Of a stretch of 64,000 bases of DNA, positions 5,475 through 56,885 are shown piece after piece. The first letter of the stretch is position 1. Each line of letters opens with the position of its first letter. Source of the DNA: the human T2T-CHM13v2.0 reference genome, Homo sapiens; the NCBI RefSeq assembly GCF_009914755.1, contig NC_060932.1, one strand, 5' to 3'. Position numbers and translations under genes: made by a program. The notes beneath the pieces are model-generated. The model was not told the DNA's origin. It ran no database searches and worked only from the letters and a program-made list of their open reading frames with translations.

Positions 5475-5529
5475 CTTGCTGCCTTCGGGAGCACCGGCCT
5501 GGCTCTGCTCCTCTCCCAACTGGCGGCTT
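5116..5529 (-). repeat. 138-bp (46-codon) tandem repeat x3 at the gene 5' end, present in every copy
   Basis: [10 protein letters not shown](P/R)[10 protein letters not shown] repeated three times; ATGs 138 bp apart. Confidence 0.95.
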
Positions 5530-5530
5530 C

Positions 5531-5691
5531 AATGAGTGCTGCGGCCGCCACTTGTCGCCTTTATATAGGCACAGGGCAGACTGGGTGGGACTTCTCCTTG
5601 ATAGGTTGGTGCTTCAGTCCAATCACACTGAGCCTCATCTTCCACCAGACTCCAGCTTGGGAATGCCTCAGGGGGTGCGCTAATGGAATCA
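5531..5691 (-). promoter_or_regulatory. Core promoter, copy 1 (TATA, CCAAT, Inr, DUX4-type motif)
   Basis: TATATAAA ~30 bp upstream of a TCATT initiator-like motif; CCAAT box; TAATGGAATCA at 5681-5691. Confidence 0.65.
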
Positions 5692-6013
5692 ACTGGAACT
5701 CCCGGTTGCTAAACTTGGAGCTAGGTTGCTTTTCCTGAGTTAAGTAACTGTCCCTGCAGGGCAGTCCTATAATGGCTACTGGAATTGGGCTACCTAGGAT
5801 TAAATTAAGGTTCAGGGAGGTTGGTCAACTTGCTTGGGCCCACACAGCACCCCTTGGAGCCAGGACTGGGCCAGCAGTCTGCTGCATGCTGGAGGGCGGG
5901 ATCCCTCTGGGGCTGCCTTTCCCTGCTCTGTGCACTCCGCCGCTGCGGGCAAATTGAGGACAGGAAGCGGACCGCACCCACTTCTCTCCCAGGACTTGGG
6001 CAATGTTCAACAC

Positions 6014-15639: not shown

Positions 15640-17667
15640 CTAAGGACAGGCCAGGGCGGCGGGAGAGGCGGACCGGTGGCGTGGCTGGATCTGGGCGCGC
15701 TGTCGGACCTTCCACATCACCAGCTGCAGGCAGGCGTTTGCGTCCTCGCTGGAGTTGTGGCCGTCCTGGCTGTCCTGGATGATCTGTGCCAGGTAGTCGG
15801 CCGCGAGATTCCTGAGGGAGCGCTTGTAGGGGAAACCCAGGTAGTGCGGGAAGAGCACGGCCGTGTCCACCACGGTGCTGTGGATGAGCTTCAGGGCCAG
15901 CAGGTCGCTCTCCAGGCTGTGCCCGATGAGGATGGTTTGGGCGCTGAAAAAGCTCAGCAGGATGGCTTGGACTTGGGGCAACGTGATGCTCGTCTTGGCG
16001 ACGTCGGCCTCGGTGACTCCGGAAAACCTGGTGTTGTAGTCCACGATCTCGTTGTCGGGCTTGACGAAGGTGTCGTACACCACTCGCATGTCGGCGTCCA
16101 CCACGGTGACGCGGGTCAGCTCTAGGCCATGCGTGGTGTAGCACATCTCACAGTCCAAGGCGTAGATTCCTGGATAAGCGTCTCTGGACAACTCTTTCTT
16201 GAAGGTCTCCACGAAGCCATCGAGGCTCTCCTTGCGGCCGTCCCGCACGTGCTGCTTTGCCACCTGGCAGCCCACAGAGCCAGGAGCAGCTGCACAGCAG
16301 GTGTACTGGCTAACCCGGCCTCCAGCCACCTGGCTCGAGCGGACCCGCCCCCAGTGATAATAACACAACTGGTCGCGTACACAGCGGCCCGAGGAGGACA
16401 CCAGGTACTCGGTGCCACAACGGCAGCAGACCCTGCAGGAGGAGTCGCCGGGCCCCTTCCCCTGGCCAGTGAAGAGGACGGCGCCTCCGGGCCGCTCGGG
16501 GTGCGGGAAGGGGTAGCCGTTCTCCTTGAGCTGGTCCTGGGTGAGCAGGAACTCCTGGAGGCGGCTGTACAGGGCGGCCCTGCTGAGGCCGGGCATGGAG
16601 CTGGGGGTCAGGCCCTTCAGTCTCTTGAGGGTGTTCAGGACCACGTTCAGGTACCTGTTCTTGTTGGGGCTGCAGTCGTAGGCCACCTTCTCCTCGTTCA
16701 GCGCCTTCTCCTCGGCCTCCTGCTTGGAGGCGCAGAACTTGAGACACTCTTCGGTGAACAGTTGGAGATAGCCTCGGCGGAGGACGGTGGGGACTTGGCA
16801 CCCAGAGCTTCGGAGGATAATGGGTTTCTTCAAACTCAAACTCGGTAAGGATGGACGACGGACGATTCGCTTAGAGCTGGTGGTGGCGGTGGTCTTGCAT
16901 GCCATCCCTGACCTGTTGCGCGTCTTCCCTGGCTGTCTGCCGACCTTGGAGCCACGGGAGCGTTGGCTGCTGCTGGCCACCCGGGTTCTCTTGGCATCTG
17001 TGTAACCTGTGACCAAGCAAGGGCTGGAAGAGTGGGCGATCGTCTTCCTCTTCCTGGGGGCTGAGATGCGGACTCCCGAGGGCCTCTCTGTCAGCCTTGG
17101 GGCGGCTGGCAAGCGGCAGGCCGATCCCCTCTGCGCAGGGAAGTAGCACGACTCCGTCACCATCTTGGGCCACGCTGGGGGCACCGCCGGACCCCTGTTC
17201 TGGGGCTCCGCCTGGATGTCCACAAATGCTGAGGCCTGCTTGTGCATCTGGGGCACCCAGAGCCCGAAGCTCTGGGCAGGCTGATGAGAGGGCAGTGGGA
17301 ATTCTGGAGCCTCGAGGGCCGCCTCCTCGGCCACCTTCTTAGCTTCTGGGTATCCAGGTGGGAACCAGCAGGGAGCTGTGGCTCGCAACATCTTGCTGCC
17401 TTCGGGAGCACCGGCCGGGCTCTGCTCCGCTCCCAAATGGCGGCTTGCCTCCGGGGCCGCCTCCTTGGCCACCTTCTTAGCTTCTGGGTATCCAGGGCGG
17501 AACCAGCAGGGAGCTGTGGCTCGCAACATCTTGCTGCCTTCGGGAGCACCGGCCTGGCTCTGCTCCCCTCCCAAATGGCGGCTTGCCTCCAGGGCCGCCT
17601 CCTCGGCCACCTTCTTAGCTTCTGGGTATCCAGGGGGGAACCAGCAGGGAGCTGTGGCTCGCAACAT
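15640..17667 (-). CDS. REXO1L1: REXO1-like exonuclease GOR, copy 2 (P272 variant)
   Basis: Same 675-aa ORF; IVRRPSL instead of IVRRASL. Confidence 0.88.
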
Positions 17668-17723
17668 CTTGCTGCCTTCGGGAGCACCGGCCTGGCTCTG
17701 CTCCTCTCCCAACTGGCGGCTTC

Positions 17724-17884
17724 AATGAGTGCTGCGGCCGCCACTTGTCGCCTTTATATAGGCACAGGGCAGACTGGGTGGGACTTCTCCTTGATAGGTT
17801 GGTGCTTCAGTCCAATCACACTGAGCCTCATCTTCCACCAGACTCCAGCTTGGGAATGCCTCAGGGGGTGCGCTAATGGAATCA
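17724..17884 (-). promoter_or_regulatory. Core promoter, copy 2
   Basis: Same motifs as copy 1. Confidence 0.65.
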
Positions 17885-18206
17885 ACTGGAACTCCCGGTT
17901 GCTAAACTTGGAGCTAGGTTGCTTTTCCTGAGTTAAGTAACTGTCCCTGCAGGGCAGTCCTATAATGGCTACTGGAATTGGGCTACCTAGGATTAAATTA
18001 AGGTTCAGGGAGGTTGGTCAACTTGCTTGGGCCCACACAGCACCCCTTGGAGCCAGGACTGGGCCAGCAGTCTGCTGCATGCTGGAGGGCGGGATCCCTC
18101 TGGGGCTGCCTTTCCCTGCTCTGTGCACTCCGCCGCTGCGGGCAAATTGAGGACAGGAAGCGGACCGCACCCACTTCTCTCCCAGGACTTGGGCAATGTT
18201 CAACAC

Positions 18207-27832: not shown

Positions 27833-29860
27833 CTAAGGACAGGCCAGGGCGGCGGGAGAGGCGGACCGGTGGCGTGGCTGGATCTGGGCGCGCTGTCGGA
27901 CCTTCCACATCACCAGCTGCAGGCAGGCGTTTGCGTCCTCGCTGGAGTTGTGGCCGTCCTGGCTGTCCTGGATGATCTGTGCCAGGTAGTCGGCCGCGAG
28001 ATTCCTGAGGGAGCGCTTGTAGGGGAAACCCAGGTAGTGCGGGAAGAGCACGGCCGTGTCCACCACGGTGCTGTGGATGAGCTTCAGGGCCAGCAGGTCG
28101 CTCTCCAGGCTGTGCCCGATGAGGATGGTTTGGGCGCTGAAAAAGCTCAGCAGGATGGCTTGGACTTGGGGCAACGTGATGCTCGTCTTGGCGACGTCGG
28201 CCTCGGTGACTCCGGAAAACCTGGTGTTGTAGTCCACGATCTCGTTGTCGGGCTTGACGAAGGTGTCGTACACCACTCGCATGTCGGCGTCCACCACGGT
28301 GACGCGGGTCAGCTCTAGGCCATGCGTGGTGTAGCACATCTCACAGTCCAAGGCGTAGATTCCTGGATAAGCGTCTCTGGACAACTCTTTCTTGAAGGTC
28401 TCCACGAAGCCATCGAGGCTCTCCTTGCGGCCGTCCCGCACGTGCTGCTTTGCCACCTGGCAGCCCACAGAGCCAGGAGCAGCTGCACAGCAGGTGTACT
28501 GGCTAACCCGGCCTCCAGCCACCTGGCTCGAGCGGACCCGCCCCCAGTGATAATAACACAACTGGTCGCGTACACAGCGGCCCGAGGAGGACACCAGGTA
28601 CTCGGTGCCACAACGGCAGCAGACCCTGCAGGAGGAGTCGCCGGGCCCCTTCCCCTGGCCAGTGAAGAGGACGGCGCCTCCGGGCCGCTCGGGGTGCGGG
28701 AAGGGGTAGCCGTTCTCCTTGAGCTGGTCCTGGGTGAGCAGGAACTCCTGGAGGCGGCTGTACAGGGCGGCCCTGCTGAGGCCGGGCATGGAGCTGGGGG
28801 TCAGGCCCTTCAGTCTCTTGAGGGTGTTCAGGACCACGTTCAGGTACCTGTTCTTGTTGGGGCTGCAGTCGTAGGCCACCTTCTCCTCGTTCAGCGCCTT
28901 CTCCTCGGCCTCCTGCTTGGAGGCGCAGAACTTGAGACACTCTTCGGTGAACAGTTGGAGATAGCCTCGGCGGAGGACGGTGGGGACTTGGCACCCAGAG
29001 CTTCGGAGGATAATGGGTTTCTTCAAACTCAAACTCGGTAAGGATGGACGACGGACGATTCGCTTAGAGCTGGTGGTGGCGGTGGTCTTGCATGCCATCC
29101 CTGACCTGTTGCGCGTCTTCCCTGGCTGTCTGCCGACCTTGGAGCCACGGGAGCGTTGGCTGCTGCTGGCCACCCGGGTTCTCTTGGCATCTGTGTAACC
29201 TGTGACCAAGCAAGGGCTGGAAGAGTGGGCGATCGTCTTCCTCTTCCTGGGGGCTGAGATGCGGACTCCCGAGGGCCTCTCTGTCAGCCTTGGGGCGGCT
29301 GGCAAGCGGCAGGCCGATCCCCTCTGCGCAGGGAAGTAGCACGACTCCGTCACCATCTTGGGCCACGCTGGGGGCACCGCCGGACCCCTGTTCTGGGGCT
29401 CCGCCTGGATGTCCACAAATGCTGAGGCCTGCTTGTGCATCTGGGGCACCCAGAGCCCGAAGCTCTGGGCAGGCTGATGAGAGGGCAGTGGGAATTCTGG
29501 AGCCTCGAGGGCCGCCTCCTCGGCCACCTTCTTAGCTTCTGGGTATCCAGGTGGGAACCAGCAGGGAGCTGTGGCTCGCAACATCTTGCTGCCTTCGGGA
29601 GCACCGGCCGGGCTCTGCTCCGCTCCCAAATGGCGGCTTGCCTCCGGGGCCGCCTCCTTGGCCAGCTTCTTAGCTTCTGGGTATCCAGGGCGGAACCAGC
29701 AGGGAGCTGTGGCTCGCAACATCTTGCTGCCTTCGGGAGCACCGGCCTGGCTCTGCTCCCCTCCCAAATGGCGGCTTGCCTCCAGGGCCGCCTCCTCGGC
29801 CACCTTCTTAGCTTCTGGGTATCCAGGGGGGAACCAGCAGGGAGCTGTGGCTCGCAACAT
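27833..29860 (-). CDS. REXO1L1: REXO1-like exonuclease GOR, copy 3 (L66, P272 variants)
   Basis: Same 675-aa ORF; KKLAKE and IVRRPSL. Confidence 0.88.
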
Positions 29861-29916
29861 CTTGCTGCCTTCGGGAGCACCGGCCTGGCTCTGCTCCTCT
29901 CCCAACTGGCGGCTTC

Positions 29917-30077
29917 AATGAGTGCTGCGGCCGCCACTTGTCGCCTTTATATAGGCACAGGGCAGACTGGGTGGGACTTCTCCTTGATAGGTTGGTGCTT
30001 CAGTCCAATCACACTGAGCCTCATCTTCCACCAGACTCCAGCTTGGGAATGCCTCAGGGGGTGCGCTAATGGAATCA
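29917..30077 (-). promoter_or_regulatory. Core promoter, copy 3
   Basis: Same motifs as copy 1. Confidence 0.65.
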
Positions 30078-30399
30078 ACTGGAACTCCCGGTTGCTAAAC
30101 TTGGAGCTAGGTTGCTTTTCCTGAGTTAAGTAACTGTCCCTGCAGGGCAGTCCTATAATGGCTACTGGAATTGGGCTACCTAGGATTAAATTAAGGTTCA
30201 GGGAGGTTGGTCAACTTGCTTGGGCCCACACAGCACCCCTTGGAGCCAGGACTGGGCCAGCAGTCTGCTGCATGCTGGAGGGCGGGATCCCTCTGGGGCT
30301 GCCTTTCCCTGCTCTGTGCACTCCGCCGCTGCGGGCAAATTGAGGACAGGAAGCGGACCGCACCCACTTCTCTCCCAGGACTTGGGCAATGTTCAACAC

Positions 30400-34066: not shown

Positions 34067-34372
34067 GGCCAGGCACGGTGGCTCATGCCTGTAATCCCAG
34101 TACTTTGGGAGGCCAAGGCAGGTGGAAGCGTTGAGCCCAGGAGTTGGAGATGAACCTGGGCAACATGGTGAAACCCCATCTCTAAAAGAAACACAAAAAT
34201 TAGCCAAGTGTGGCGTTGGACGCCTGTAGTCCTAGCTATTCAGGAGGCTGAAGCGGGAGGAACTCTCGACCCCGGGAGGTGGAGGCCGTGGTGAGTGAGC
34301 CGTGTTTGTGTCACTGTACTCCAGCCTGGGTGACAGACTGAGACCCTGTCTCAAAAAATAAATAATTACATA
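34067..34372 (+). mobile_element. AluJ-like, unit 3 (4-bp-shorter allele)
   Basis: Copy of 9681-9990. Confidence 0.9.
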
Positions 34373-35786
34373 ATAAAGATTTAAAAAGCAAGCACAAAAA
34401 GACAAATACTGCATGATCTCACTTATATGTGCAATCTCAAACAATGCAACTCATAGCTGTAGAGAGCAGAACGGTGGTTACCCGAGGCAGGGGTCAGGGA
34501 GGGACTGGAGAGATGATAGTCTCATGATACAAAATTTCAGAGAGGAATGGTTCTAGAGATCTATTGAACAGCCTGGCATCTACAGTGTATAACTATGTAT
34601 TGTATACTTGAAAATTGCTATAAGACTAGATTTTACACATGTCCTCATCACATTAAAATCAGTATGTGAGGAAACGAGTGTGTTAATTAGCTTGATTTTG
34701 TCATTCCACAATGTATACACGTATGAAACATCATGTTGTATGCCATAAATATATATAATTTTTATTTGTCAAGTTAAAATTAAAATTCATATAAATTATA
34801 AAAATAAAATGAAATAACATACACTACAAAAGACGTTTATTTATTAAATCCCCACAGAAGGGGTCTAAGTGATAAAGGAAAATAAAATTCCGGGAACGGT
34901 AAAATCAATCAGAAATGCCCTACTTCAGTGCTTTCCGAAATTTGTCTGACAGAGTGGAAATCCAGTTTTTCACTAAGTCACTGTTCTGGAACAGTTTGTG
35001 TGTGTGTATGTATGTGTGTGAGGGCTCACATACACAAATTGAACTAATGGAAGTGTAAGCTTTCAAATTATCAGTTTAATTTAGTTCTATACATATACAC
35101 ACACACACACTCACACACCGAAAACATTGATAAAATCAGCCATTCCAGCAAAACTAGCTACTTAGTGTCTATCTCTCCTTGAAGATTCAAACTAGAAATG
35201 AGGATTTAGAGAGGCATGATGGTTCGTTCTCTCTTGGAGCCCAGTTCGAAGTTGACTGACTGATTCAGTCATTGTAATTGGTTGGTCTTGGGGAAGAATC
35301 CACTTTGACTCTTGGGAAGTCAGCTAGGTCAGCGGACAGAGCAGGGGCTCTGGAGCCAGACTGCCTGCACCCGACTTCTAGCTATGATACCTTGGATAAA
35401 CTACTTATCACCTGGGCTTCAGGTTCCTCATCTGTAAAATGGGGATAAGAATGCTATCTCTCTCACAACTATTAGGAGGACTGACTGGGTTAATACGTGC
35501 AAAGTACCGAGTACATAAGAAGCCAACAGCCAGTGCTCATTATAATCATTATTATTTTGGGCAAGTTAAGCCGCATGGTTTCTTTAGGTATAAAATTAGG
35601 CTTTATTTACCTACCTGTTGGGTTGTTCCAAGGATTAATCACATAGTGTTCATGAATTCCCTTTATAAACTATTATAGAAAAGAAATATAGTTAACATTA
35701 ATTGAACACCTACTATGTGCGATCGTTTTAAGGCTTGCCATGTGCTGCTTCATTCAGTCCGCACCATGACATTAGGATCACACTTT

Positions 35787-36722
35787 CGTTTTCCATTTTT
35801 TTTTAAATTATACTTTAATTACTAGGGTACATGTGCACAACGTGCAGGTTTATTACGTATGTAAGCACGTGCCATGTTGGTGTGCTGCACCCATTCACTA
35901 GTCATTTACATTAGGTATATCTCTTAATGTTATCCCTCCCCCTCCCCCCGCCCATGACAGGCCCCGGTGTGTGATGTTCCCCTTTCTGCGTCCAAGTGTT
36001 CTCCTAGTTCAATTCCCACCTATGAGTGGGATCACGCGGTGTTTGGTTTTTTTGTCCTTGCGATAGTTTGCTAAGAATGATGGTTTCCAGCTTCATCCGT
36101 GTCCCTCCGAAGGGCATGAACACATGCTTTTTTATGGCTGCATAGTATTCCACGGTGTATTTGTGCCACGTTTCCTTAATCCAGTCTATCATTGATGGAC
36201 ATCTGGGCTGGTTCCAAGTCTTTGCTACTGTGAACGGTGCTGCAATAAACATACGTCTGCGTGTGTCCTTTTAGCAGCATGATTTATAGTCCTATGGGTG
36301 TATACCCAGTAATGGGACGGCTGAGTCAAATGGTATTTCTAATTCTAGATCCTTGAGGATTCGCCACACTATCTTCCACAACCGCTGAACTGGTTTACAG
36401 TCCCACCAGCAGTGTAAAAGTGTCCCTATTTCTCCACTACCTCTCCAGCACCTGTTGTTTCCTGACTTTTTTATTGATCGCTATTCTAACTGGTGTGAGA
36501 CGATATCTCTTTGCGGATTTGATTTGCATTTCTCTGATGACCAGTGTTGATGAGCATTTTTTCATGTGTCTGTTGGCTGCATAAATGTCTTCTTTTTAGA
36601 AGTGTCTCTTCATATCCTTCCCGCACTTATTGATGGGGTTGTTTGGTTTTTCTTGTAACTCTGTTTGAGTTCTTAGTAGATTCTGGATATTAGCCCTTTG
36701 TCAGATGAGTAGATTGCAAAAA
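35787..36722 (-). mobile_element. 3' ~0.93-kb fragment of the L1PA, cut by the inversion; forms the palindrome spacer
   Basis: L1 3'UTR and ORF2 end, stopping at ...agattgcaaaaa. Confidence 0.93.
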
Positions 36723-38147
36723 AATGGAAAACGAAAGTGTGATCCTAATGTCATGGTGCGTACTGAATGAAGCAGCACATGGCAAGCCTTAAAACGATCG
36801 CACATAGTAGGTGTTCAATTAATGTTAACTATATTTCTTTTCTATAATAGTTTATAAAGGGAATTCATGAACACTATGTGATTAATCCTTGGAACAACCC
36901 AACAGGTAGGTAAATAAAGCCTAATTTTATACCTAAAGAAACCATGCGGCTTAACTTGCCCAAAATAATAATGATTGTAATGAGCACTGGCTGTTGGTTT
37001 CTTATGTACTTGGTACTTTGCACGTATTAACCCAGTCAGTCCTCCTAACAGTTGTGAGAGAGATAGCATTCTTATCCCCATTTTACAGATGAGGAACCTG
37101 AAGCCCAGGTGATAAGTAGTTTATCCAAGGTATCATAGCTAGAAGTCGGGTGCAGGCAGTCTGGCTCCAGAGCCCCTGCTCTGTCCGCTGACCTAGCTGA
37201 CTTCCCAAGAGTCAAAGTGGATTCTTCCCCAAGACCAACCAATTACAATGACTGAATCAGTCAGTCAACTTCGAACTGGGCTCCAAGAGAGAACGAACCA
37301 TCATGCCTCTCTAAATCCTCATTTCTAGTTTGAATCTTCAAGGAGAGATAGACACTAAGTAGCTAGTTTTGCTGGAATGGCTGATTTTATCAATGTTTTC
37401 GGTGTGTGAGTGTGTGTGTGTGTATATGTATAGAACTAAATTAAACTGATAATTTGAATGCTTACACTTCCATTAGTTCAATTTGTGTATGTGAGCCCTC
37501 ACACACATACATACACACACACAAACTGTTCCAGAACAGTGACTTAGTGAAAAACTGGATTTCCACTCTGTCAGACAAATTTCGGAAAGCACTGAAGTAG
37601 GGCATTTCTGATTGATTTTACCGTTCCCGGAATTTTATTTTCCTTTATCACTTAGACCCCTTCTGTGGGGATTTAATAAATAAACGTCTTTTGTAGTGTA
37701 TGTTATTTCATTTTATTTTTATAATTTATATGAATTTTAATTTTAACTTGACAAATAAAAATTATATATATTTATGGCATACAACATGATGTTTCATACG
37801 TGTATACATTGTGGAATGACAAAATCAAGCTAATTAACACACTCGTTTCCTCACATACTGATTTTAATGTGATGAGGACATGTCTAAAATCTACTCTTAT
37901 AGCAATTTTCAAGTATACAATACATAGTTATACACTGTAGATGCCAGGCTGTTCAATAGATCTCTAGAACCATTCCTCTCTGAAATTTTGTATCATGAGA
38001 CTATCATCTCTCCAGTCCCTCCCTGACCCCTGCCTCGGGTAACCACCGTTCTGCTCTCTACAGCTATGAGTTGCATTGTTGGAGATTGCACATATAAGTG
38101 AGATCATGCAGTATTTGTCTTTTTGTGCTTGCTTTTTAAATCTTTAT

Positions 38148-38457
38148 TATGTAATTATTTATTTTTTGAGACAGGGTCTCAGTCTGTCACCCAGGCTGGA
38201 GTACAGTGACACAAACACGGCTCACTCACCCACCACGGCCTCCACCTCCCGGGGTCGAGAGTTCCTCCCGCTTCAGCCTCCTGAATAGCTAGGACTACAG
38301 GCGTCCAACGCCACACTTGGCTAATTTTTGTGTTTCTTTTAGAGATGGGGTTTCACCATGTTGCCCAGGTTCATCTCCAACTCCTGGGCTCAACGCTTCC
38401 ACCTGCCTTGGCCTCCCAAAGTACTGGGATTACAGGCATGAGCCACCGTGCCTGGCC
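38148..38457 (-). mobile_element. AluJ-like, inverted block
   Basis: Reverse-complement copy. Confidence 0.9.
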
Positions 38458-38585
38458 TTTGCTTTCTTTCACTCAGTGTACCATCCTCTAGGCTCATTCG
38501 TGTTGCCAATGAGATGATTTCTTTCTTTTTTAAGGCTGAATTGTGTTCTATTGGGTATATGTACCGCTTTTCTTTTTATGTTTAA

Positions 38586-38798
38586 TTTTTTTTGGTTTTT
38601 TGAGACAGAGTTTCGCTCGCGTCGCCCAGGCTGGAGTGCAGTGGCGTGATTTCGAGTCACTACAACCTCTGCCTCCCAGGTTGAAGTGATTCTCCTGCCT
38701 CACCTGAGATTAGAGGCATGTACCGGCATGTCCGGCTAATTTTGTGTTTCTAGTAGAGATGGGGTTTCACCATGTTGGCCAGGCTGGTCTTGAACTCC
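38586..38798 (-). mobile_element. Truncated Alu, inverted block
   Basis: Reverse-complement copy. Confidence 0.9.
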
Positions 38799-41237
38799 AA
38801 CAATTCTAATTCAACTAATTTATTTTATAGAAATATTTATGTGTGAGAAACAATATTTTCAAGAGTCAAAGATTTAAAACTGCTTAATTGTACATCACTA
38901 AGTGGCTGGCTAATAAATTATAGTACGTTCATCCTTACGGAAGAATACTTTGCAGCTAAAACAGAACGAAAGAGAGGAAACTCTTCAAAATGTTAACTGG
39001 GAATGACGTTCAAGACTTATTGTTAAATAAAACAAATTGAGAAGAAGAGTCGTTTATTGGTACTAAATTTGTGTCAGTAAAAATGGATTCTATACGTGGG
39101 ATGGTTTATAAGTATGTGGAAAAATTCTTTGATGGTTTTTCCTTGAAAAAGTGAAACCTAAATCCACTCCGTTTGGATGTGGGCCTATTTACGGTTGTTG
39201 CTTCCTAAACATAAACTACGTTTAGGCTGATATTTCAGACAATGAAACCTTTGAGTGCCCGTAGCGGGAAGATCTCGGTTGCTGAGTGCAGGGAAGGAGG
39301 ATGTAATTCCATCATATATACTCTCTGTGCCTACCGCATTTGGAACCATGCGAGTGATACCTATTTATAAAATAAAATAAACCAAGCACAAGTACGAACT
39401 TAGCAACACTACATTGAGTTAATAGAACGGTATCTTGTATTTCTTCTGTCCAGGTATACTTATAAATGCCTGCAGGGATTTCACCACCTCAGGGTGGAGA
39501 GACTCAATGCTTGTGAGGGAATTAGGATGGTGGAATATTGGTGTTACCAGGGAAGGGGGCGGGATGTTTGAAAATGCTATGTTTACTCGTTCTTGGGTTC
39601 CAATAAAGGAGAAACAGGGCACAGGAGTCGGAAGGACTAGTGGCAATAGTGATGAAAGGACCTCCTTATCATGCTGGCAATGTTAATTACCCAGGTGTAG
39701 GAAGCCATACACTGAGGCGGAAGATCGCAAGTCAGAGTGGCCGGCAGGCACAACCTCCTGGCACACCAGAGGCAGGTCTTCAATACCCACTGGTTTCCCC
39801 AACAGGCTGCGTAAGGGACCCTGAGCCACAGTGAGTTGGTCAAATGCTCCTGACAGTGTGGAGAAACCAACAGGCAAAACGTGGGTGCAAAAGTGATGAG
39901 ACCCCACACTTTACACTCGTGGTGACAATGAAGCTATTAAGTAACAGCTTCTCAACCTATGCTGTTTCCTGCTGGATGCACATAATCCATTTGCACTGCA
40001 GACAATTTTAGGATGTGGTTTACAGTAAGGTGGATGGTACCTTATGGCAAAAATCTCTCAGAAATTTATGTGTGGTTTTAAAGTCATTCCAGTCCTAGCA
40101 CGTTGCGCTTTTCAGAGACGCCATAGCTGTTTTTCCCTTTGTAATATCAAAGCAGTAATATCTTCTCTGGAGGCCTGTTGGGTGAATTTAATGGAATCAA
40201 GTTAAGTAGGTGCCAGAACCATTGCTGTTTTCCCTCCATAGCCCTGCCACCCACTGTAAAAAGGTTGATGAGATTACTTAATGATTTCCAATTAAGTTGT
40301 ATTTCCAAATATCATGATTTCCATTTTAATGTAGTTGGTATGGAGCTCTGTGAGTGTGTGCTTCTTTTATTATGGATCACGTTCAGCTTCTTTTTATTTG
40401 CCTCCTAGTCATAATAGTAAAACTCTACTCCTCTACTCCGAGGAGTCCCTACCACCCATCTCATCACTTTCCAGCCCAGCACTCTTCATGCTCATTCATT
40501 TAAAGCATTCAACATTGTGTAAATGAATCTTGGAAGGCCAAAGCTACTGAATTTAGCGAATTTGTGGAGGCATTGCCACAAATCAGCCAGGTGAAGTTTC
40601 ACACAATCGAAGACTGCACAACTCCTAGAAGGCAGCACTATGCTGCAAACCCAGACGGCCACTCTTCTCACCCCTCGTCCGTTTGCTGTTCTGGATAATG
40701 AGGTTCAAAAGTCACCTAGGCAACTGCCAAAATAGCTGAAATGGAGAAAGGGCTTCAGGCTGGTGACTAGCAGAGGTCCACCTGACCCCCGTAAGCTGCT
40801 GAACAAGTAGGGCTGCCAGAAATGTCCCACTAGGGAATTTGGTAGAGACGAAGACATGCTCACCGGACAAGGGTTCCTCCCAGGATACGCCCGAGCGGAA
40901 GAAGCGGGCTCTGAGCCACGCCCTTTCACCCTCCTCTACCCCGCCCTGGGCTGGTGAAGGTGCGCGCCAGGATGTGGACTACTGAGCCCTGAAGAAATAA
41001 GTCCTTCCACTTTGACCCCATGGAGGATTGCCTGTGAGGAACTTAAACGAGTCTACCAGTGTCTAGACACGGGGGCAGGTCTGTCCGGCACAGCAGCTCC
41101 CTCAAGGAGGAGAAGAGTGAGGAGAAAGGAAACTCAAGTCTCACCATTCTGTCCTGGGAGAGAAGAGGAGGATCTCATCTCTCATCTGTCCAAACAAGGC
41201 AAGGAGACTTTCTCTCATCTTTCCAAGCAAGGCAAGG

Positions 41238-42124
41238 AGACTTTTTATCATTAGGAAACAAAAAGAATTTAGAAGGAATGAAAGCAGCCCGTAAGGTGAA
41301 TTCCTAAGGACTGCCCATTGAAACTGACAAAATTGCCCTTGTTTGATGAGAGGAATGAGCAGAGCATTGATGTGGTGAACAAGGATCTAGTGAGACTTTC
41401 CCAGCATGTTTCTACCAAAGCTTTATCTAAGCTTCTCAGAACACTCTCCTAATAAGCAGATGTTTGGCCTTTCAGAAAGTCAACAAGCAAAATGCCTTGA
41501 GTGTCCCAAAACACTGATGCCATGATGTGGGCTCCTGACTGGCCTCCTTTTCCTTTGACTGGACCACTGCCACCTCTTGGTAGCCATCGCTTTCATGATG
41601 CTTTGCCTTGGCGATCATATTGGTGAAGCCATGCTCCAACTGCCGCTTACAATTTGTCAGAGGGATGCGTCAGGATCGTGATCCCTCCTGTTTAAAATTT
41701 CCACTGATAGCTCTCGTCGTAACTGCAGCTGATCTGGGCACAGTGGTTTTCACAGCCACTGCAGGATTCATCTTCCACATCTTCTCACCTCTTCTTGAAA
41801 CAAGCTATACATTCGTAAAGAGTTCATTTCTTTGGGGTAGTGTCCTTACAAGCTTTTCTTAAAACGTCAATGATTTCTTCAATCTTCCACCCAAGCTTCA
41901 CCATAAATTTGATGTTTCCTCTTGCTGCAATTTTCGTGGAATTCAAGTTGCTCTGACGGGAGTCCTTTTCAGTGGATGTCTCATCCTTCTTAGTGCCTCA
42001 AACTAGATCTAGTTCAGAAAGGTTATCAGAAGTTAGGACAAGTTTATTTTAGTGCAAACCAGTGGAAATCCATGCATAGTTTCTTCACCATGTGCATTTT
42101 CTATGAAGCTTTGGAAGACCACCT
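41238..42124 (-). mobile_element. HSMAR2 remnant, inverted block
   Basis: Reverse-complement copy. Confidence 0.85.
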
Positions 42125-42446
42125 GTGTTGAACATTGCCCAAGTCCTGGGAGAGAAGTGGGTGCGGTCCGCTTCCTGTCCTCAATTTGCCCGCAGCGGCG
42201 GAGTGCACAGAGCAGGGAAAGGCAGCCCCAGAGGGATCCCGCCCTCCAGCATGCAGCAGACTGCTGGCCCAGTCCTGGCTCCAAGGGGTGCTGTGTGGGC
42301 CCAAGCAAGTTGACCAACCTCCCTGAACCTTAATTTAATCCTAGGTAGCCCAATTCCAGTAGCCATTATAGGACTGCCCTGCAGGGACAGTTACTTAACT
42401 CAGGAAAAGCAACCTAGCTCCAAGTTTAGCAACCGGGAGTTCCAGT

Positions 42447-42607
42447 TGATTCCATTAGCGCACCCCCTGAGGCATTCCCAAGCTGGAGTCTGGTGGAAGA
42501 TGAGGCTCAGTGTGATTGGACTGAAGCACCAACCTATCAAGGAGAAGTCCCACCCAGTCTGCCCTGTGCCTATATAAAGGCGACAAGTGGCGGCCGCAGC
42601 ACTCATT
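42447..42607 (+). promoter_or_regulatory. Core promoter, copy 4
   Basis: TGATTCCATTA 42447-42457, ATTGG 42515-42519, TATATAAA 42571-42578, TCATT 42603-42607. Confidence 0.65.
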
Positions 42608-42608
42608 G

Positions 42609-43022
42609 AAGCCGCCAGTTGGGAGAGGAGCAGAGCCAGGCCGGTGCTCCCGAAGGCAGCAAGATGTTGCGAGCCACAGCTCCCTGCTGGTTCCCCCCTG
42701 GATACCCAGAAGCTAAGAAGGTGGCCGAGGAGGCGGCCCTGGAGGCAAGCCGCCATTTGGGAGGGGAGCAGAGCCAGGCCGGTGCTCCCGAAGGCAGCAA
42801 GATGTTGCGAGCCACAGCTCCCTGCTGGTTCCGCCCTGGATACCCAGAAGCTAAGAAGGTGGCCAAGGAGGCGGCCCCGGAGGCAAGCCGCCATTTGGGA
42901 GCGGAGCAGAGCCCGGCCGGTGCTCCCGAAGGCAGCAAGATGTTGCGAGCCACAGCTCCCTGCTGGTTCCCACCTGGATACCCAGAAGCTAAGAAGGTGG
43001 CCGAGGAGGCGGCCCTCGAGGC
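42609..43022 (+). repeat. 138-bp tandem repeat x3, copy 4
   Basis: ATG at 42664, 42802 and 42940. Confidence 0.95.
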
Positions 43023-44691
43023 TCCAGAATTCCCACTGCCCTCTCATCAGCCTGCCCAGAGCTTCGGGCTCTGGGTGCCCCAGATGCACAAGCAGGCCTC
43101 AGCATTTGTGGACATCCAGGCGGAGCCCCAGAACAGGGGTCCGGCGGTGCCCCCAGCGTGGCCCAAGATGGTGACGGAGTCGTGCTACTTCCCTGCGCAG
43201 AGGGGATCGGCCTGCCGCTTGCCAGCCGCCCCAAGGCTGACAGAGAGGCCCTCGGGAGTCCGCATCTCAGCCCCCAGGAAGAGGAAGACGATCGCCCACT
43301 CTTCCAGCCCTTGCTTGGTCACAGGTTACACAGATGCCAAGAGAACCCGGGTGGCCAGCAGCAGCCAACGCTCCCGTGGCTCCAAGGTCGGCAGACAGCC
43401 AGGGAAGACGCGCAACAGGTCAGGGATGGCATGCAAGACCACCGCCACCACCAGCTCTAAGCGAATCGTCCGTCGTGCATCCTTACCGAGTTTGAGTTTG
43501 AAGAAACCCATTATCCTCCGAAGCTCTGGGTGCCAAGTCCCCACCGTCCTCCGCCGAGGCTATCTCCAACTGTTCACCGAAGAGTGTCTCAAGTTCTGCG
43601 CCTCCAAGCAGGAGGCCGAGGAGAAGGCGCTGAACGAGGAGAAGGTGGCCTACGACTGCAGCCCCAACAAGAACAGGTACCTGAACGTGGTCCTGAACAC
43701 CCTCAAGAGACTGAAGGGCCTGACCCCCAGCTCCATGCCCGGCCTCAGCAGGGCCGCCCTGTACAGCCGCCTCCAGGAGTTCCTGCTCACCCAGGACCAG
43801 CTCAAGGAGAACGGCTACCCCTTCCCGCACCCCGAGCGGCCCGGAGGCGCCGTCCTCTTCACTGGCCAGGGGAAGGGGCCCGGCGACTCCTCCTGCAGGG
43901 TCTGCTGCCGTTGTGGCACCGAGTACCTGGTGTCCTCCTCGGGCCGCTGTGTACGCGACCAGTTGTGTTATTATCACTGGGGGCGGGTCCGCTCGAGCCA
44001 GGTGGCTGGAGGCCGGGTTAGCCAGTACACCTGCTGTGCAGCTGCTCCTGGCTCTGTGGGCTGCCAGGTGGCAAAGCAGCACGTGCGGGACGGCCGCAAG
44101 GAGAGCCTCGATGGCTTCGTGGAGACCTTCAAGAAAGAGTTGTCCAGAGACGCTTATCCAGGAATCTACGCCTTGGACTGTGAGATGTGCTACACCACGC
44201 ATGGCCTAGAGCTGACCCGCGTCACCGTGGTGGACGCCGACATGCGAGTGGTGTACGACACCTTCGTCAAGCCCGACAACGAGATCGTGGACTACAACAC
44301 CAGGTTTTCCGGAGTCACCGAGGCCGACGTCGCCAAGACGAGCATCACGTTGCCCCAAGTCCAAGCCATCCTGCTGAGCTTTTTCAGCGCCCAAACCATC
44401 CTCATCGGGCACAGCCTGGAGAGCGACCTGCTGGCCCTGAAGCTCATCCACAGCACCGTGGTGGACACGGCCGTGCTCTTCCCGCACTACCTGGGTTTCC
44501 CCTACAAGCGCTCCCTCAGGAATCTCGCGGCCGACTACCTGGCACAGATCATCCAGGACAGCCAGGACGGCCACAACTCCAGCGAGGACGCAAACGCCTG
44601 CCTGCAGCTGGTGATGTGGAAGGTCCGACAGCGCGCCCAGATCCAGCCACGCCACCGGTCCGCCTCTCCCGCCGCCCTGGCCTGTCCTTAG
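42664..44691 (+). CDS. REXO1L1: REXO1-like exonuclease GOR, copy 4 (inverted block)
   Basis: ATG at 42664 (aagATGt), TAG at 44689-44691; DEDDh motifs intact. Confidence 0.88.
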
Positions 44692-45255: not shown

Positions 45256-48927
<3,672 letters not shown>

Positions 48928-54318: not shown

Positions 54319-54640
54319 GTGTTGAACATTGCCCAAGTCCTGGGAGAGAAGTGGGTGCGGTCCGCTTCCTGTCCTCAATTTGCCCGCAGCGGCGGAGTGC
54401 ACAGAGCAGGGAAAGGCAGCCCCAGAGGGATCCCGCCCTCCAGCATGCAGCAGACTGCTGGCCCAGTCCTGGCTCCAAGGGGTGCTGTGTGGGCCCAAGC
54501 AAGTTGACCAACCTCCCTGAACCTTAATTTAATCCTAGGTAGCCCAATTCCAGTAGCCATTATAGGACTGCCCTGCAGGGACAGTTACTTAACTCAGGAA
54601 AAGCAACCTAGCTCCAAGTTTAGCAACCGGGAGTTCCAGT

Positions 54641-54801
54641 TGATTCCATTAGCGCACCCCCTGAGGCATTCCCAAGCTGGAGTCTGGTGGAAGATGAGGC
54701 TCAGTGTGATTGGACTGAAGCACCAACCTATCAAGGAGAAGTCCCACCCAGTCTGCCCTGTGCCTATATAAAGGCGACAAGTGGCGGCCGCAGCACTCAT
54801 T
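54641..54801 (+). promoter_or_regulatory. Core promoter, copy 5
   Basis: Same motifs as copy 4. Confidence 0.65.
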
Positions 54802-54857
54802 GAAGCCGCCAGTTGGGAGAGGAGCAGAGCCAGGCCGGTGCTCCCGAAGGCAGCAAG

Positions 54858-56885
54858 ATGTTGCGAGCCACAGCTCCCTGCTGGTTCCCCCCTGGATACC
54901 CAGAAGCTAAGAAGGTGGCCGAGGAGGCGGCCCTGGAGGCAAGCCGCCATTTGGGAGGGGAGCAGAGCCAGGCCGGTGCTCCCGAAGGCAGCAAGATGTT
55001 GCGAGCCACAGCTCCCTGCTGGTTCCGCCCTGGATACCCAGAAGCTAAGAAGGTGGCCAAGGAGGCGGCCCCGGAGGCAAGCCGCCATTTGGGAGCGGAG
55101 CAGAGCCCGGCCGGTGCTCCCGAAGGCAGCAAGATGTTGCGAGCCACAGCTCCCTGCTGGTTCCCACCTGGATACCCAGAAGCTAAGAAGGTGGCCGAGG
55201 AGGCGGCCCTCGAGGCTCCAGAATTCCCACTGCCCTCTCATCAGCCTGCCCAGAGCTTCGGGCTCTGGGTGCCCCAGATGCACAAGCAGGCCTCAGCATT
55301 TGTGGACATCCAGGCGGAGCCCCAGAACAGGGGTCCGGCGGTGCCCCCAGCGTGGCCCAAGATGGTGACGGAGTCGTGCTACTTCCCTGCGCAGAGGGGA
55401 TCGGCCTGCCGCTTGCCAGCCGCCCCAAGGCTGACAGAGAGGCCCTCGGGAGTCCGCATCTCAGCCCCCAGGAAGAGGAAGACGATCGCCCACTCTTCCA
55501 GCCCTTGCTTGGTCACAGGTTACACAGATGCCAAGAGAACCCGGGTGGCCAGCAGCAGCCAACGCTCCCGTGGCTCCAAGGTCGGCAGACAGCCAGGGAA
55601 GACGCGCAACAGGTCAGGGATGGCATGCAAGACCACCGCCACCACCAGCTCTAAGCGAATCGTCCGTCGTGCATCCTTACCGAGTTTGAGTTTGAAGAAA
55701 CCCATTATCCTCCGAAGCTCTGGGTGCCAAGTCCCCACCGTCCTCCGCCGAGGCTATCTCCAACTGTTCACCGAAGAGTGTCTCAAGTTCTGCGCCTCCA
55801 AGCAGGAGGCCGAGGAGAAGGCGCTGAACGAGGAGAAGGTGGCCTACGACTGCAGCCCCAACAAGAACAGGTACCTGAACGTGGTCCTGAACACCCTCAA
55901 GAGACTGAAGGGCCTGACCCCCAGCTCCATGCCCGGCCTCAGCAGGGCCGCCCTGTACAGCCGCCTCCAGGAGTTCCTGCTCACCCAGGACCAGCTCAAG
56001 GAGAACGGCTACCCCTTCCCGCACCCCGAGCGGCCCGGAGGCGCCGTCCTCTTCACTGGCCAGGGGAAGGGGCCCGGCGACTCCTCCTGCAGGGTCTGCT
56101 GCCGTTGTGGCACCGAGTACCTGGTGTCCTCCTCGGGCCGCTGTGTACGCGACCAGTTGTGTTATTATCACTGGGGGCGGGTCCGCTCGAGCCAGGTGGC
56201 TGGAGGCCGGGTTAGCCAGTACACCTGCTGTGCAGCTGCTCCTGGCTCTGTGGGCTGCCAGGTGGCAAAGCAGCACGTGCGGGACGGCCGCAAGGAGAGC
56301 CTCGATGGCTTCGTGGAGACCTTCAAGAAAGAGTTGTCCAGAGACGCTTATCCAGGAATCTACGCCTTGGACTGTGAGATGTGCTACACCACGCATGGCC
56401 TAGAGCTGACCCGCGTCACCGTGGTGGACGCCGACATGCGAGTGGTGTACGACACCTTCGTCAAGCCCGACAACGAGATCGTGGACTACAACACCAGGTT
56501 TTCCGGAGTCACCGAGGCCGACGTCGCCAAGACGAGCATCACGTTGCCCCAAGTCCAAGCCATCCTGCTGAGCTTTTTCAGCGCCCAAACCATCCTCATC
56601 GGGCACAGCCTGGAGAGCGACCTGCTGGCCCTGAAGCTCATCCACAGCACCGTGGTGGACACGGCCGTGCTCTTCCCGCACTACCTGGGTTTCCCCTACA
56701 AGCGCTCCCTCAGGAATCTCGCGGCCGACTACCTGGCACAGATCATCCAGGACAGCCAGGACGGCCACAACTCCAGCGAGGACGCAAACGCCTGCCTGCA
56801 GCTGGTGATGTGGAAGGTCCGACAGCGCGCCCAGATCCAGCCACGCCACCGGTCCGCCTCTCCCGCCGCCCTGGCCTGTCCTTAG
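54858..56885 (+). CDS. REXO1L1: REXO1-like exonuclease GOR, copy 5 (inverted block)
   Basis: Protein identical to copies 1 and 4 in the ORF track. Confidence 0.88.

What the first reader, a model, noticed from the sequence alone, without database searches (positions are those of the whole stretch)
42330..42607. DUX4-type and paired-homeodomain motifs in a TATA promoter: candidate embryonic genome activation or germline gene array
Seen: TAATGGAATCA (5681-5691; reverse complement at 42447-42457) lies ~150 bp upstream of the predicted start site. TAATTTAATCC (5797-5807, reverse strand) contains the TAATCC site, followed by CCAAT, TATATAAA and an initiator-like motif. Established: the DUX4 consensus is TAAYBBAATCA; TAATCC is the K50 paired-like homeodomain site; cleavage-stage DUX4 targets are often multicopy tandem gene families. 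Inference: the array could provide a burst of RNA exonuclease at embryonic genome activation, for example in maternal RNA turnover. This is the best candidate here for an undescribed system, but it rests on motifs only.
Basis: partly seen in the sequence, partly recalled or inferred. Interest (0 to 1): 0.72.

Follow-up and report, generated by a model that had tools for sequence, protein, structure and literature searches.

The report
REXO1L1/GOR array promoter with homeodomain-type sites
This is the TATA-box promoter of the many-copy human REXO1L1 (GOR) exonuclease gene; it does carry DUX4-like sites, but the one embryo dataset that lists the gene shows its RNA falling, not rising, as the embryo's genome switches on.

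Summary
In the plus-oriented unit they are TAATTTAATCC (42331-41), CCAAT (42350), TAATGGAATCA (42447-57, minus strand), an inverted CCAAT (42515), TATATAAA (42571-78) and an initiator-like CTCATT (42602-07), about 60 nt before the ATG of an intact 675-aa ORF. The window belongs to the known 8q21.2 REXO1L1/GOR 12.19-kb VNTR, so the ten hits are two independent sites repeated five times.

One strict DUX4-consensus hit in a 405-bp promoter is rare by chance (about 0.001 per promoter). TAATCC alone is not enriched. The strict hit carries G at positions 5 and 6, an untested and probably weak variant.

No open paper links REXO1L1 to DUX4 or genome activation. REXO1L is absent from six supplement sets searched, including DUX4 induction and knock-down tables. 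It appears once in Töhönen 2015, among transcripts significantly decreased from the 4-cell to the 8-cell stage, and in neither accumulated list.

Best reading: a CpG-poor germline or maternal-type promoter whose RNA is cleared at genome activation. Direct DUX4 control is unproven (about 15%). The array is already known; only the regulatory idea is new.

The parts
42331..42341 (+). Site A: TAATTTAATCC, a tandem homeodomain-type site that contains the K50 hexamer TAATCC. It lies about 265 bp upstream of the inferred start.
   Evidence: It differs from the strict DUX4 consensus only at the last base (C instead of A). Zhang 2016's SELEX2 oligo TAATTCAATCC also ends in C; it was transcriptionally active and shifted strongly. 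The site is intact in 53 of 53 units compared.
42350..42354 (+). Distal CCAAT
   Evidence: CCAAT occurs 22 times per unit, so this copy alone means little.
42447..42457 (-). Site B: TAATGGAATCA, a strict match to TAAYBBAATCA, about 150 bp upstream of the inferred start.
   Evidence: A 25-mer that includes it occurs at 70 places in the genome, all on chr8 between 86.09 and 86.93 Mb. It is intact in 53 of 53 units compared. The GG variant itself has not been tested in any paper I read.
42515..42519 (-). Proximal inverted CCAAT box (GATTGG on the + strand), about 85 bp upstream of the inferred start. This is the usual NF-Y position; that assignment is recalled, not tested.
42571..42578 (+). TATA box, TATATAAA
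   Evidence: It is the only TATATAAA in the 12.19-kb unit. CTATATAAAGG is intact in 53 of 53 units.
42602..42607 (+). Initiator-like CTCATT; the inferred start lies at about 42601-42605.
   Evidence: The position 30-34 bp after the TATA box is what suggests it. This is an inference and I saw no 5'-end data.
42200..42663 (+). Promoter and 5' leader of this unit. It is CpG-poor: one CpG in 42225-42424.
   Evidence: CpG observed/expected is 0.07 in 42225-42424, and all five window copies are identical; 40 of the 40 scored genome copies are 100% identical, out of 72 candidates, all on chr8.
42664..44691 (+). REXO1L1/GOR ORF of 675 aa, with an EloA-BP1 domain and a C-terminal DEDDh-type exonuclease domain (aa 499-659). 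The first 500 bp are 138-nt (46-aa) repeats.
40189..40199 (+). Site C: a second exact TAATGGAATCA, 2.26 kb upstream of site B and in the opposite orientation.
   Evidence: One search matched only array copies (73 candidates, 40 scored), so there is no sign of a dispersed repeat at that sensitivity. The site is intact in 53 of 53 units.
54394..54857 (+). Identical promoter copy of the next plus-oriented unit (ORF 54858-56885)
5475..5938 (-). Identical promoter copy of a minus-oriented unit (ORF 3447-5474).
17668..18131 (-). Identical promoter copy (ORF 15640-17667, LOC124906707)
29861..30324 (-). Identical promoter copy (ORF 27833-29860, LOC124906708)

Best explanation
The span is the core promoter of one unit of the REXO1L1/GOR gene array, the 8q21.2 12.19-kb VNTR. 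It is a CpG-poor promoter with a TATA box at about -30, an inverted CCAAT box at about -85, and two tandem-homeodomain-type sites at about -150 and -265. It drives an intronless, intact 675-aa ORF that encodes an Elongin-A-binding domain and a DEDDh 3'-5' exonuclease domain.

The most likely activity pattern is germline or oocyte (maternal) expression. The RNA is present in 4-cell blastomeres and is actively removed by the 8-cell stage, so it is cleared at genome activation rather than made then. The homeodomain-type sites are candidate binding sites for paired-like factors of the oocyte or early embryo.

Shown: the promoter anatomy, the open ORFs, the domains, and one published row on stage dynamics. 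Inferred: the start site, the maternal origin, and any binding by a factor.
For: Anatomy.

Array identity. The period is 12,193-12,194 bp with orientation switches. There are 70 promoter copies, all on chr8. Logsdon 2021 (passages) describes the 12.192-kb REXO1L1 unit, with 67 full and 7 partial copies in five domains of alternating orientation.

Gene product. Pfam EloA-BP1 matches at E 2e-38. Residues 499-659 align to SDN1 (5z9x, E 1.6e-27), ISG20 and ISG20L2, with DxE, D and H-x4-D visible in the alignment. The ORF is open in 63 of the 66 scored copies and in 53 of 53 units compared from the ATG.

Embryo data, Töhönen 2015. A search of 7 supplement files gave one REXO1L row: TFE FE527666, annotated as CDS of REXO1L1, score -67.2, q 0, row 79 of 1,512 in file s6. 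That file is Supplementary Data 5, 'significantly decreased 4-cell to 8-cell'. Decreases there are tested after correcting for cell divisions. There is no row in Data 2 (32 accumulated, oocyte to 4-cell) or Data 4 (129 accumulated, 4-cell to 8-cell). A transcript absent from oocytes yet this robust at the 4-cell stage should have appeared in Data 2, so a maternal supply is the simpler reading. BMP15, a classical oocyte transcript, is also in Data 5.

Somatic methylation. The 3-kb gene part is methylated in CHM13. A REXO1L2P amplicon is 84% methylated in non-tumour liver against 54% in hepatocellular carcinoma.
Against: The stage evidence is one row in one study. I could not see counts for oocytes, nor check that the TFE is sense to the gene. 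It spans 1.67 kb inside the CDS rather than the 5' end, which the authors read as typical of partly degraded RNA.

GDF9, ZP3 and BMP15 all appear in Data 3 (decreased oocyte to 4-cell), but REXO1L1 does not. It therefore does not behave like those classical maternal transcripts.

No paper in the open library reports oocyte or testis expression of REXO1L1. 'REXO1L' with 'oocyte' gave 1 unrelated paper, and with 'testis' gave 5 papers, 4 of them listed, none reporting such expression by title or in the passages I read. RT-PCR signals in cancer lines and irradiated HEK293 show the gene is not strictly germline.

Variation among units shows no clear constraint on the protein: 23 nonsynonymous to 12 synonymous changes, against a neutral nonsynonymous fraction of 0.76, p 0.17.
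Confidence: 0.45

Rival explanations
1. The motifs are chance matches with no regulatory role. The promoter is largely silent and methylated in most cells. The array matters mainly as structure: a copy-number-variable macrosatellite, a neocentromere site, and a PU.1/PIRAT binding platform in monocytes. The single embryo row reflects low-level or degraded RNA.
For: About 20 human promoters would carry a strict hit by chance, at 0.001 per 405-bp promoter (the extrapolation is mine). TAATCC is not enriched. No site matches the four-variant consensus TAAYYYAATCA (0 in the unit).

The sites' invariance in 53 of 53 units is uninformative, because 33 bp would carry only about one variant at the observed SNV density. 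The ORF shows no significant constraint. REXO1L is absent from six supplement sets.

The known roles of the array are structural or act as a sink: neocentromere and CENP-A, and PU.1/PIRAT binding.
Against: Three relaxed tandem sites (TAAYNNAATCM) per unit against 0.347 expected (P 0.006), all within 2.4 kb upstream of the ATG. Two of them lie in the 405-bp promoter, which 0 of 20,000 shuffles reached. I defined the relaxed pattern after seeing the data, so this overstates the case.

The Töhönen row is highly significant: rank 79 of 1,511 data rows.
Confidence: 0.35
2. REXO1L1 is a direct DUX4 target of the minor wave. DUX4, which peaks at the 4-cell stage, binds sites A and B and perhaps C. 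It switches on many units briefly, and the RNA then falls by the 8-cell stage as DUX4 itself disappears.
For: Site B is a strict consensus match. Site A resembles the active SELEX2 sequence. Zhang 2016 found that single sites are weak but two sites synergise.

DUX4 peaks at the 4-cell stage, according to a review passage. REXO1L1 RNA is present at the 4-cell stage and has fallen by the 8-cell stage.

The GG variant is the form abundant in HSat2-like satellite: 37,680 genome copies against 1,248 for the reversed control, and 5-10 per 10 kb in the chr1 and chr16 stretches sampled. DUX4 is reported to activate HSATII.

Near-identical copies could hide the gene from pipelines that keep only unique reads.
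Against: REXO1L1 is not among the 32 TFEs accumulated from oocyte to 4-cell, where ZSCAN4, DUXA, TRIM48, PRAMEF1 and KHDC1L do appear.

REXO1L is absent from the 4.5 million characters held for Vuoristo 2022. Those tables cover NET-CAGE and STRT after DUX4 induction in hESC and DUX4 knock-down in embryos. It is also absent from the 4.2 million characters held for the DUX4/DUXA/DUXB study. I cannot tell whether those tables were cut when stored.

No paper holds both terms in a functional context: 7 co-mentions, none functional by title or in the passages I read. G at positions 5 and 6 is off the preferred C and T. That DUX4 binds HSATII through this 11-mer is my own conjecture; no DUX4 paper appears among the 20 listed of 33 that print it.
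Confidence: 0.15
3. One reading: the array fires at the major wave of embryonic genome activation (8-cell) and supplies a burst of exonuclease for maternal RNA turnover.
For: Only the motifs and the multicopy architecture. The exonuclease domain looks intact.
Against: The RNA decreases from the 4-cell to the 8-cell stage beyond dilution. It is not among the 129 TFEs accumulated at the 8-cell stage. REXO1L is absent from the held supplements of the 8-cell-like-cell paper and the preimplantation isoform atlas.
Confidence: 0.03

Closest known systems
REXO1L1 (GOR) gene cluster, the 8q21.2 12.192-kb VNTR or macrosatellite (Warburton 2008, Tyson 2014, Brahmachary 2014, Logsdon 2021)
   Same: This is that array. 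It has the same unit length, the same gene, domains that alternate in orientation, and a GC-rich gene part of about 3 kb.
   Different: Nothing differs structurally. The cited papers call the gene a pseudogene or say its function is unknown. In CHM13 the ORF is open in every copy I read from the ATG (53 of 53). I found no description of the promoter in the passages read.
Direct DUX4 target promoters of cleavage-stage multicopy families (ZSCAN4, TRIM43/48, PRAMEF, KHDC1L, DUXA, LEUTX)
   Same: It is a multicopy tandem gene family. It has a strict TAAYBBAATCA match plus a second tandem site within 300 bp of the inferred start, and a TATA-type promoter.
   Different: The site has G at positions 5 and 6 rather than C or T. 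The gene is not in the lists of transcripts accumulated at the 4-cell or 8-cell stage and instead decreases from 4-cell to 8-cell. It was not found in the DUX4-induction tables I could search. No occupancy data were available.
Maternal transcripts cleared around genome activation
   Same: The RNA is present at the 4-cell stage and falls beyond dilution by the 8-cell stage. BMP15 is in the same list.
   Different: Unlike GDF9, ZP3 and BMP15, it is not in the oocyte-to-4-cell decreased list. Its presence in oocytes was not seen directly.
REXO1 / SDN1 / ISG20 DEDDh 3'-5' exonucleases
   Same: The C-terminal domain (residues 499-659) aligns to SDN1, ISG20 and ISG20L2 with the acidic and H-x4-D motifs visible. 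It also carries the EloA-BP1 domain, as REXO1 does.
   Different: It is intronless and shorter, with an N-terminus built of 46-aa repeats whose number varies between units. No activity data exist. Pfam's own exonuclease model gave no hit even at E 10.

Membership tests
Direct DUX4 target gene | DUX4 consensus site (TAAYBBAATCA) close to the transcription start | tested here: met
   Site B at 42447-57 matches the IUPAC consensus. It is not one of the four variants (TT, CT, TC, CC) that Zhang 2016 treats as the ChIP consensus: TAAYYYAATCA has 0 hits in the unit.
Direct DUX4 target gene | DUX4 occupancy in ChIP-seq or CUT&RUN | not testable with these tools
   No read-level data are available. 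No paper in the open library reports it.
Direct DUX4 target gene | Induced when DUX4 is expressed | tested here: inconclusive
   REXO1L is absent from the held supplements of Vuoristo 2022 (5 files, 4.5 M characters), PMC10514451 (3 files, 4.2 M), Resnick 2019 (2 files) and PMC12057663 (1 file). Multi-mapping filters, or tables cut in storage, could hide it.
Direct DUX4 target gene | Accumulates in cleavage-stage embryos at the minor or major wave | tested here: not met
   Töhönen 2015: REXO1L is absent from Data 2 (32 TFEs) and Data 4 (129 TFEs) and present in Data 5, decreased 4-cell to 8-cell.
Maternal transcript cleared at genome activation | Present before the major wave and reduced beyond dilution by the 8-cell stage | tested here: met
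   Data 5 row with score -67.2 and q 0. The test corrects for cell divisions.
Maternal transcript cleared at genome activation | Present in oocytes | tested here: inconclusive
   No oocyte counts were seen. Maternal origin is inferred only from the gene's absence in the oocyte-to-4-cell accumulated list. 'REXO1L' with 'oocyte' gave 1 unrelated paper.
DEDDh exonuclease (REXO1 family) | Exonuclease domain with the D-E-D-D-h motifs | tested here: met
   Aligned to SDN1 5z9x at E 1.6e-27 over residues 499-659. DCEM, SDL and H-x4-D are visible in the alignment. Pfam's exonuclease model itself gave no hit.
DEDDh exonuclease (REXO1 family) | Nuclease activity | not testable with these tools
   None
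8q21.2 REXO1L1 VNTR | Unit of about 12.19 kb carrying REXO1L1, in domains of alternating orientation | tested here: met
   Spacings are 12,189-12,194 bp and inverted arms reach 14.3 kb. The 70 promoter copies show strand switches. This agrees with Logsdon 2021.

The most novel reading that the evidence does not exclude
The roughly 70-per-haplotype, fully open REXO1L1 genes form an early-embryo gene battery specific to primates, and multi-mapping has hidden it. The units would be switched on through sites A and B by DUX4 or another paired-like factor (DUXA, LEUTX, TPRX, OTX2) in the oocyte-to-4-cell period. They would supply an Elongin-A-binding 3'-5' exonuclease that acts in the clearance of maternal RNA, and would then be shut off by the 8-cell stage. 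The GG form of the DUX4 site, which is also the HSat2 form, would then be a real in vivo DUX4 site class.
Probability: 0.1. Interest if true: 0.7.

Novelty: new member of a known kind. Interest (0 to 1): 0.33.

Why it matters
REXO1L1 is one of the most copy-number-variable protein-coding arrays in humans, with 108-266 diploid copies, and more in chimpanzee and gorilla. Its function is still called unknown. If its promoter answers to early-embryo homeodomain factors, a large and highly polymorphic dose of an exonuclease would act in the first cell divisions, when maternal RNA is cleared. That is a testable link between macrosatellite copy number and early development.

As things stand the sequence gives only a lead. 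The one accessible embryo dataset shows the RNA is there at the 4-cell stage but falling, which redirects the question from 'activated at genome activation?' to 'maternal, or minor wave?'.

Tried and rejected
1. An inverted duplication of the promoter as the source of the two TAATGGAATCA hits per unit. Rejected: there is no inverted repeat in 38500-43200 and the flanks are unrelated.

2. A promoter or site C derived from a dispersed transposon such as MaLR. Genome searches with 464 bp and 401 bp matched only array copies: 72 and 73 candidates, 40 scored each. The first look is word-based and can miss old repeats, so this is not excluded.

3. Invariance of the sites among units as evidence of constraint. 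Rejected as uninformative: the sites are intact in 53 of 53 units, but only about one variant would be expected in 33 bp.

4. Co-variation of REXO1L probes with DUX4, DUB3/USP17, TCEB3C, FAM90A7 and NBPF9 in a blood microarray. I read this as the signature of genomic DNA carry-over acting on intronless multicopy genes, not as co-regulation. That is an inference.

5. Papers not held: Hendrickson 2017 and Jagannathan 2016, and Koike 2001 on the human GOR gene. Their data may bear on the claim. Geng 2012, Yao 2014 and Young 2013 were not tried.

6. One paper search was too loose and gave nothing useful.

Full report
What is there.

The window is part of the human 8q21.2 REXO1L1/GOR tandem array. 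It holds five units with a period of 12,193-12,194 bp. Three have the gene on the minus strand (ORFs 3447-5474, 15640-17667, 27833-29860) and two on the plus strand (42664-44691, 54858-56885). The orientation switches near 36 kb, at inverted arms 34290-35802 and 36718-38230. This agrees with Logsdon 2021, of which I read passages: a 12.192-kb unit, 67 full and 7 partial copies in CHM13, five domains of alternating orientation, the 3-kb gene part methylated and the rest hypomethylated, and a neocentromere site. Brahmachary 2014 (passages) reports 108-266 diploid copies in people, more in chimpanzee and gorilla, and function unknown.

The finding's span, 42330-42607, lies directly upstream of the plus-strand ORF at 42664.

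The observation.

- Site A, TAATTTAATCC, 42331-41 (+)
- CCAAT, 42350
- Site B, TAATGGAATCA, 42447-57 (-)
- inverted CCAAT, 42515
- TATATAAA, 42571-78, the only copy in the unit
- CTCATT, 42602-07
- ATG, 42664

The start at about 42601-42605 is inferred from the TATA spacing; I saw no 5'-end data. The 464 bp before the ATG are identical in all five window copies and in 40 of the 40 scored genome copies, out of 72 candidates, all on chr8. A 25-mer that includes site B occurs at 70 places, all on chr8 between 86.09 and 86.93 Mb, with none for the reversed control.

The promoter is CpG-poor: one CpG in 42225-42424, observed/expected 0.07. The ORF is 57-71% G+C, with island-like CpG content in its 3' half.

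Is it more than chance?

The ten strict hits in the window (expected 0.69) are two independent sites seen five times. The second, site C at 40189-99, lies 2.26 kb upstream in unrelated sequence.

On a single unit:
- Strict consensus: 2 against 0.117 expected; 10 of 1000 shuffles reach 2.
- A relaxed tandem pattern, TAAYNNAATCM, which I chose after reading Zhang 2016: 3 against 0.347 expected, P 0.006.
- TAATCC: 7 against 5.4 expected, P 0.30.

In the 405-bp promoter the chance of one strict hit is 0.00105. Two relaxed hits were reached in 0 of 20,000 shuffles. So the hexamer means nothing on its own. The tandem sites are unusual for one promoter, but they are what about 20 promoters genome-wide would show by chance, and the relaxed test is post hoc.

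The sites and the TATA box are intact in 53 of 53 units compared, out of 70. SNV density is 3.5, 2.2 and 1.7 per 100 bp in the upstream, promoter and coding parts, so zero changes in 33 bp carries no weight.

How good are the sites?

A review (passage) confirms TAAYBBAATCA as the ChIP-seq consensus and TAATCTAATCA as the optimum. From Zhang 2016 I read the abstract and passages:
- C at position 5 and T at position 6 are preferred.
- The ChIP consensus is treated as four variants: TT, CT, TC and CC.
- The MaLR site TAATTGAATCA, with G at position 6, 'deviates'. It gives 2.4-fold against about 8-fold reporter activity and competes less well.
- Half-sites are inactive.
- Single sites are weak and two sites synergise.
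- The second-ranked SELEX sequence, TAATTCAATCC, which ends in C, was active and shifted strongly.

Site B has G at both variable positions and was not tested there. It is therefore at least as credible a DUX4-type site as site B. Together they could in principle act as a pair. This is an inference.

The exact 11-mer of site B occurs 37,680 times in the genome, against 1,248 for the reversed control. That is because it is a variant of HSat2-like satellite: 5 and 10 copies per 10 kb in the chr1 and chr16 stretches sampled. DUX4 is reported to activate HSATII (review passage). Whether it does so through this 11-mer I could not establish. No DUX4 paper appears among the 20 listed of 33 papers that print it.

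What the literature says.

Full-text searches:
- 'REXO1L': 61 papers, 40 listed
- with 'DUX4': 7
- with 'embryo': 19
- with 'oocyte': 1
- with 'testis': 5
- 'exonuclease GOR': 6

None links the gene to DUX4, genome activation or the germline, by title or in the passages I read.

The co-mentions are copy-number surveys or expression lists. In one blood microarray the REXO1L probes rise together with DUX4, DUB3, TCEB3C, FAM90A7 and NBPF9. I read this as DNA carry-over acting on intronless multicopy genes.

Other known facts:
- PU.1 and the lincRNA PIRAT bind alternately along the array in monocytes.
- RT-PCR signal is seen in cancer lines, with induction by X-rays in HEK293.
- A REXO1L2P amplicon is 84% methylated in non-tumour liver and 54% in hepatocellular carcinoma.

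Supplementary tables.

REXO1L is absent from the text held for six papers:
- the 8-cell-like-cell paper (4 files)
- PMC12057663 (1 file)
- Resnick 2019 (2 files)
- Vuoristo 2022 (5 files, 4.5 M characters). The tables are described as NET-CAGE and STRT after DUX4 induction in hESC, and STRT after DUX4 knock-down in embryos.
- the DUX4/DUXA/DUXB study (3 files, 4.2 M characters)
- the preimplantation isoform atlas (8 files)

I cannot tell whether long tables were cut in storage, or whether multi-mapped reads were dropped upstream.

The one hit is in Töhönen 2015: TFE FE527666, hg19 chr8:86786050-86787723, minus strand, position 'CDS', gene REXO1L1, score -67.2, q 0, row 79 of 1,512 in file s6. 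[quoted passage not shown] Decreases are tested after correcting for cell divisions. There is no REXO1L row among the 32 TFEs accumulated from oocyte to 4-cell, the 129 accumulated from 4-cell to 8-cell, or the 33,794 rows decreased from oocyte to 4-cell. For calibration, GDF9, ZP3 and BMP15 lie in the oocyte-to-4-cell decreased list, and BMP15 is also in Data 5.

Reading.

The RNA exists in 4-cell blastomeres and is actively lost by the 8-cell stage. This speaks against a burst at the major wave. A transcript that was absent from oocytes yet robust at the 4-cell stage should have been called 'accumulated'. A maternal, germline-made transcript cleared at genome activation is therefore the simplest reading (0.45).

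A DUX4-driven minor-wave pulse (0.15) stays possible. DUX4 peaks at the 4-cell stage, and the gene is easily lost to multi-mapping. Against it stand the up-lists, the DUX4 induction tables and the weak site variant.

A purely chance motif on a mostly silent promoter (0.35) cannot be excluded.

The gene product.

The 675-aa ORF carries Pfam EloA-BP1 (E 2e-38) and a C-terminal domain that aligns to SDN1, ISG20 and ISG20L2 with the DEDDh motifs visible. Pfam's exonuclease model itself gave no hit. Of the 66 scored copies, 63 have no stop. The three flagged 'TGA' copies are units lacking one 138-bp repeat, read through upstream of their ATG.

Read from the ATG, all 53 units compared are open: 47 of 675 aa, 5 of 629 aa and 1 of 673 aa. 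Variants among units are 23 nonsynonymous, 12 synonymous and no stops. The neutral nonsynonymous fraction is 0.76 (p 0.17), so there is no clear sign of constraint in this young, homogenised array.

Verdict.

The array and gene are known. The promoter's motif content and the 4-cell-to-8-cell decline have not been discussed in any paper I could search. Interest is moderate to low until read-level re-analysis is done.

Noticed in passing
window 40189-40199, 42447-42457 and equivalents; L009 and L010 (G000 chr1 130.0 Mb, chr16 40.0 Mb): The exact 11-mer TAATGGAATCA occurs 37,680 times in the genome, against 1,248 for the reversed control. It is a common variant of HSat2-like satellite, with 5-10 copies per 10 kb there. 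The 'GG' form of the DUX4 consensus is therefore the satellite form, which may bear on how DUX4 activates HSATII.
   Followed up: partly
window 34290-38230: The array switches orientation here. Inverted arms 34290-35802 and 36718-38230 are 99% complementary and separated by a 915-nt spacer. This is one of the domain boundaries described for this VNTR.
   Followed up: partly
window 42609-43160 and equivalents: The 5' leader and the first ~500 bp of the ORF consist of 138-nt (46-aa) tandem repeats, each with its own in-frame ATG context. Five of the 53 units compared lack one repeat (629-aa ORF), and one unit has an in-frame 6-bp deletion.
   Followed up: partly
window 42664-44691 (aa 281-357 and beyond): REXO1L1 keeps the Elongin-A-binding domain (Pfam EloA-BP1). 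Brahmachary 2014 shows the REXO1L1 and TCEB3C (Elongin A3) arrays both largest in chimpanzee and gorilla, so a binding pair may be co-expanding. TCEB3C has no row in the Töhönen supplements.
   Followed up: no
window 46945-46952 and equivalents: There is a single PU.1-type core, GAGGAAGT, per unit, 2.2 kb 3' of the ORF and inside a stretch the hub lists as masked repeat. It is a candidate for the PU.1 peaks reported along the array in monocytes.
   Followed up: no
window 3447-5474 and 54858-56885, plus 42664-44691: Three of the five intact 675-aa ORFs in the window have no gene row in the hub's RefSeq table, which lists only 15640-17667 and 27833-29860.
   Followed up: no
PMC4305227, Tables 4-15: In a blood microarray, probes for intronless multicopy arrays (REXO1L1-7P, DUB3, DUX4, DUX1, TCEB3C, FAM90A7, NBPF9) change together by 10- to 40-fold. 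This looks like genomic DNA carry-over rather than biology.
   Followed up: no
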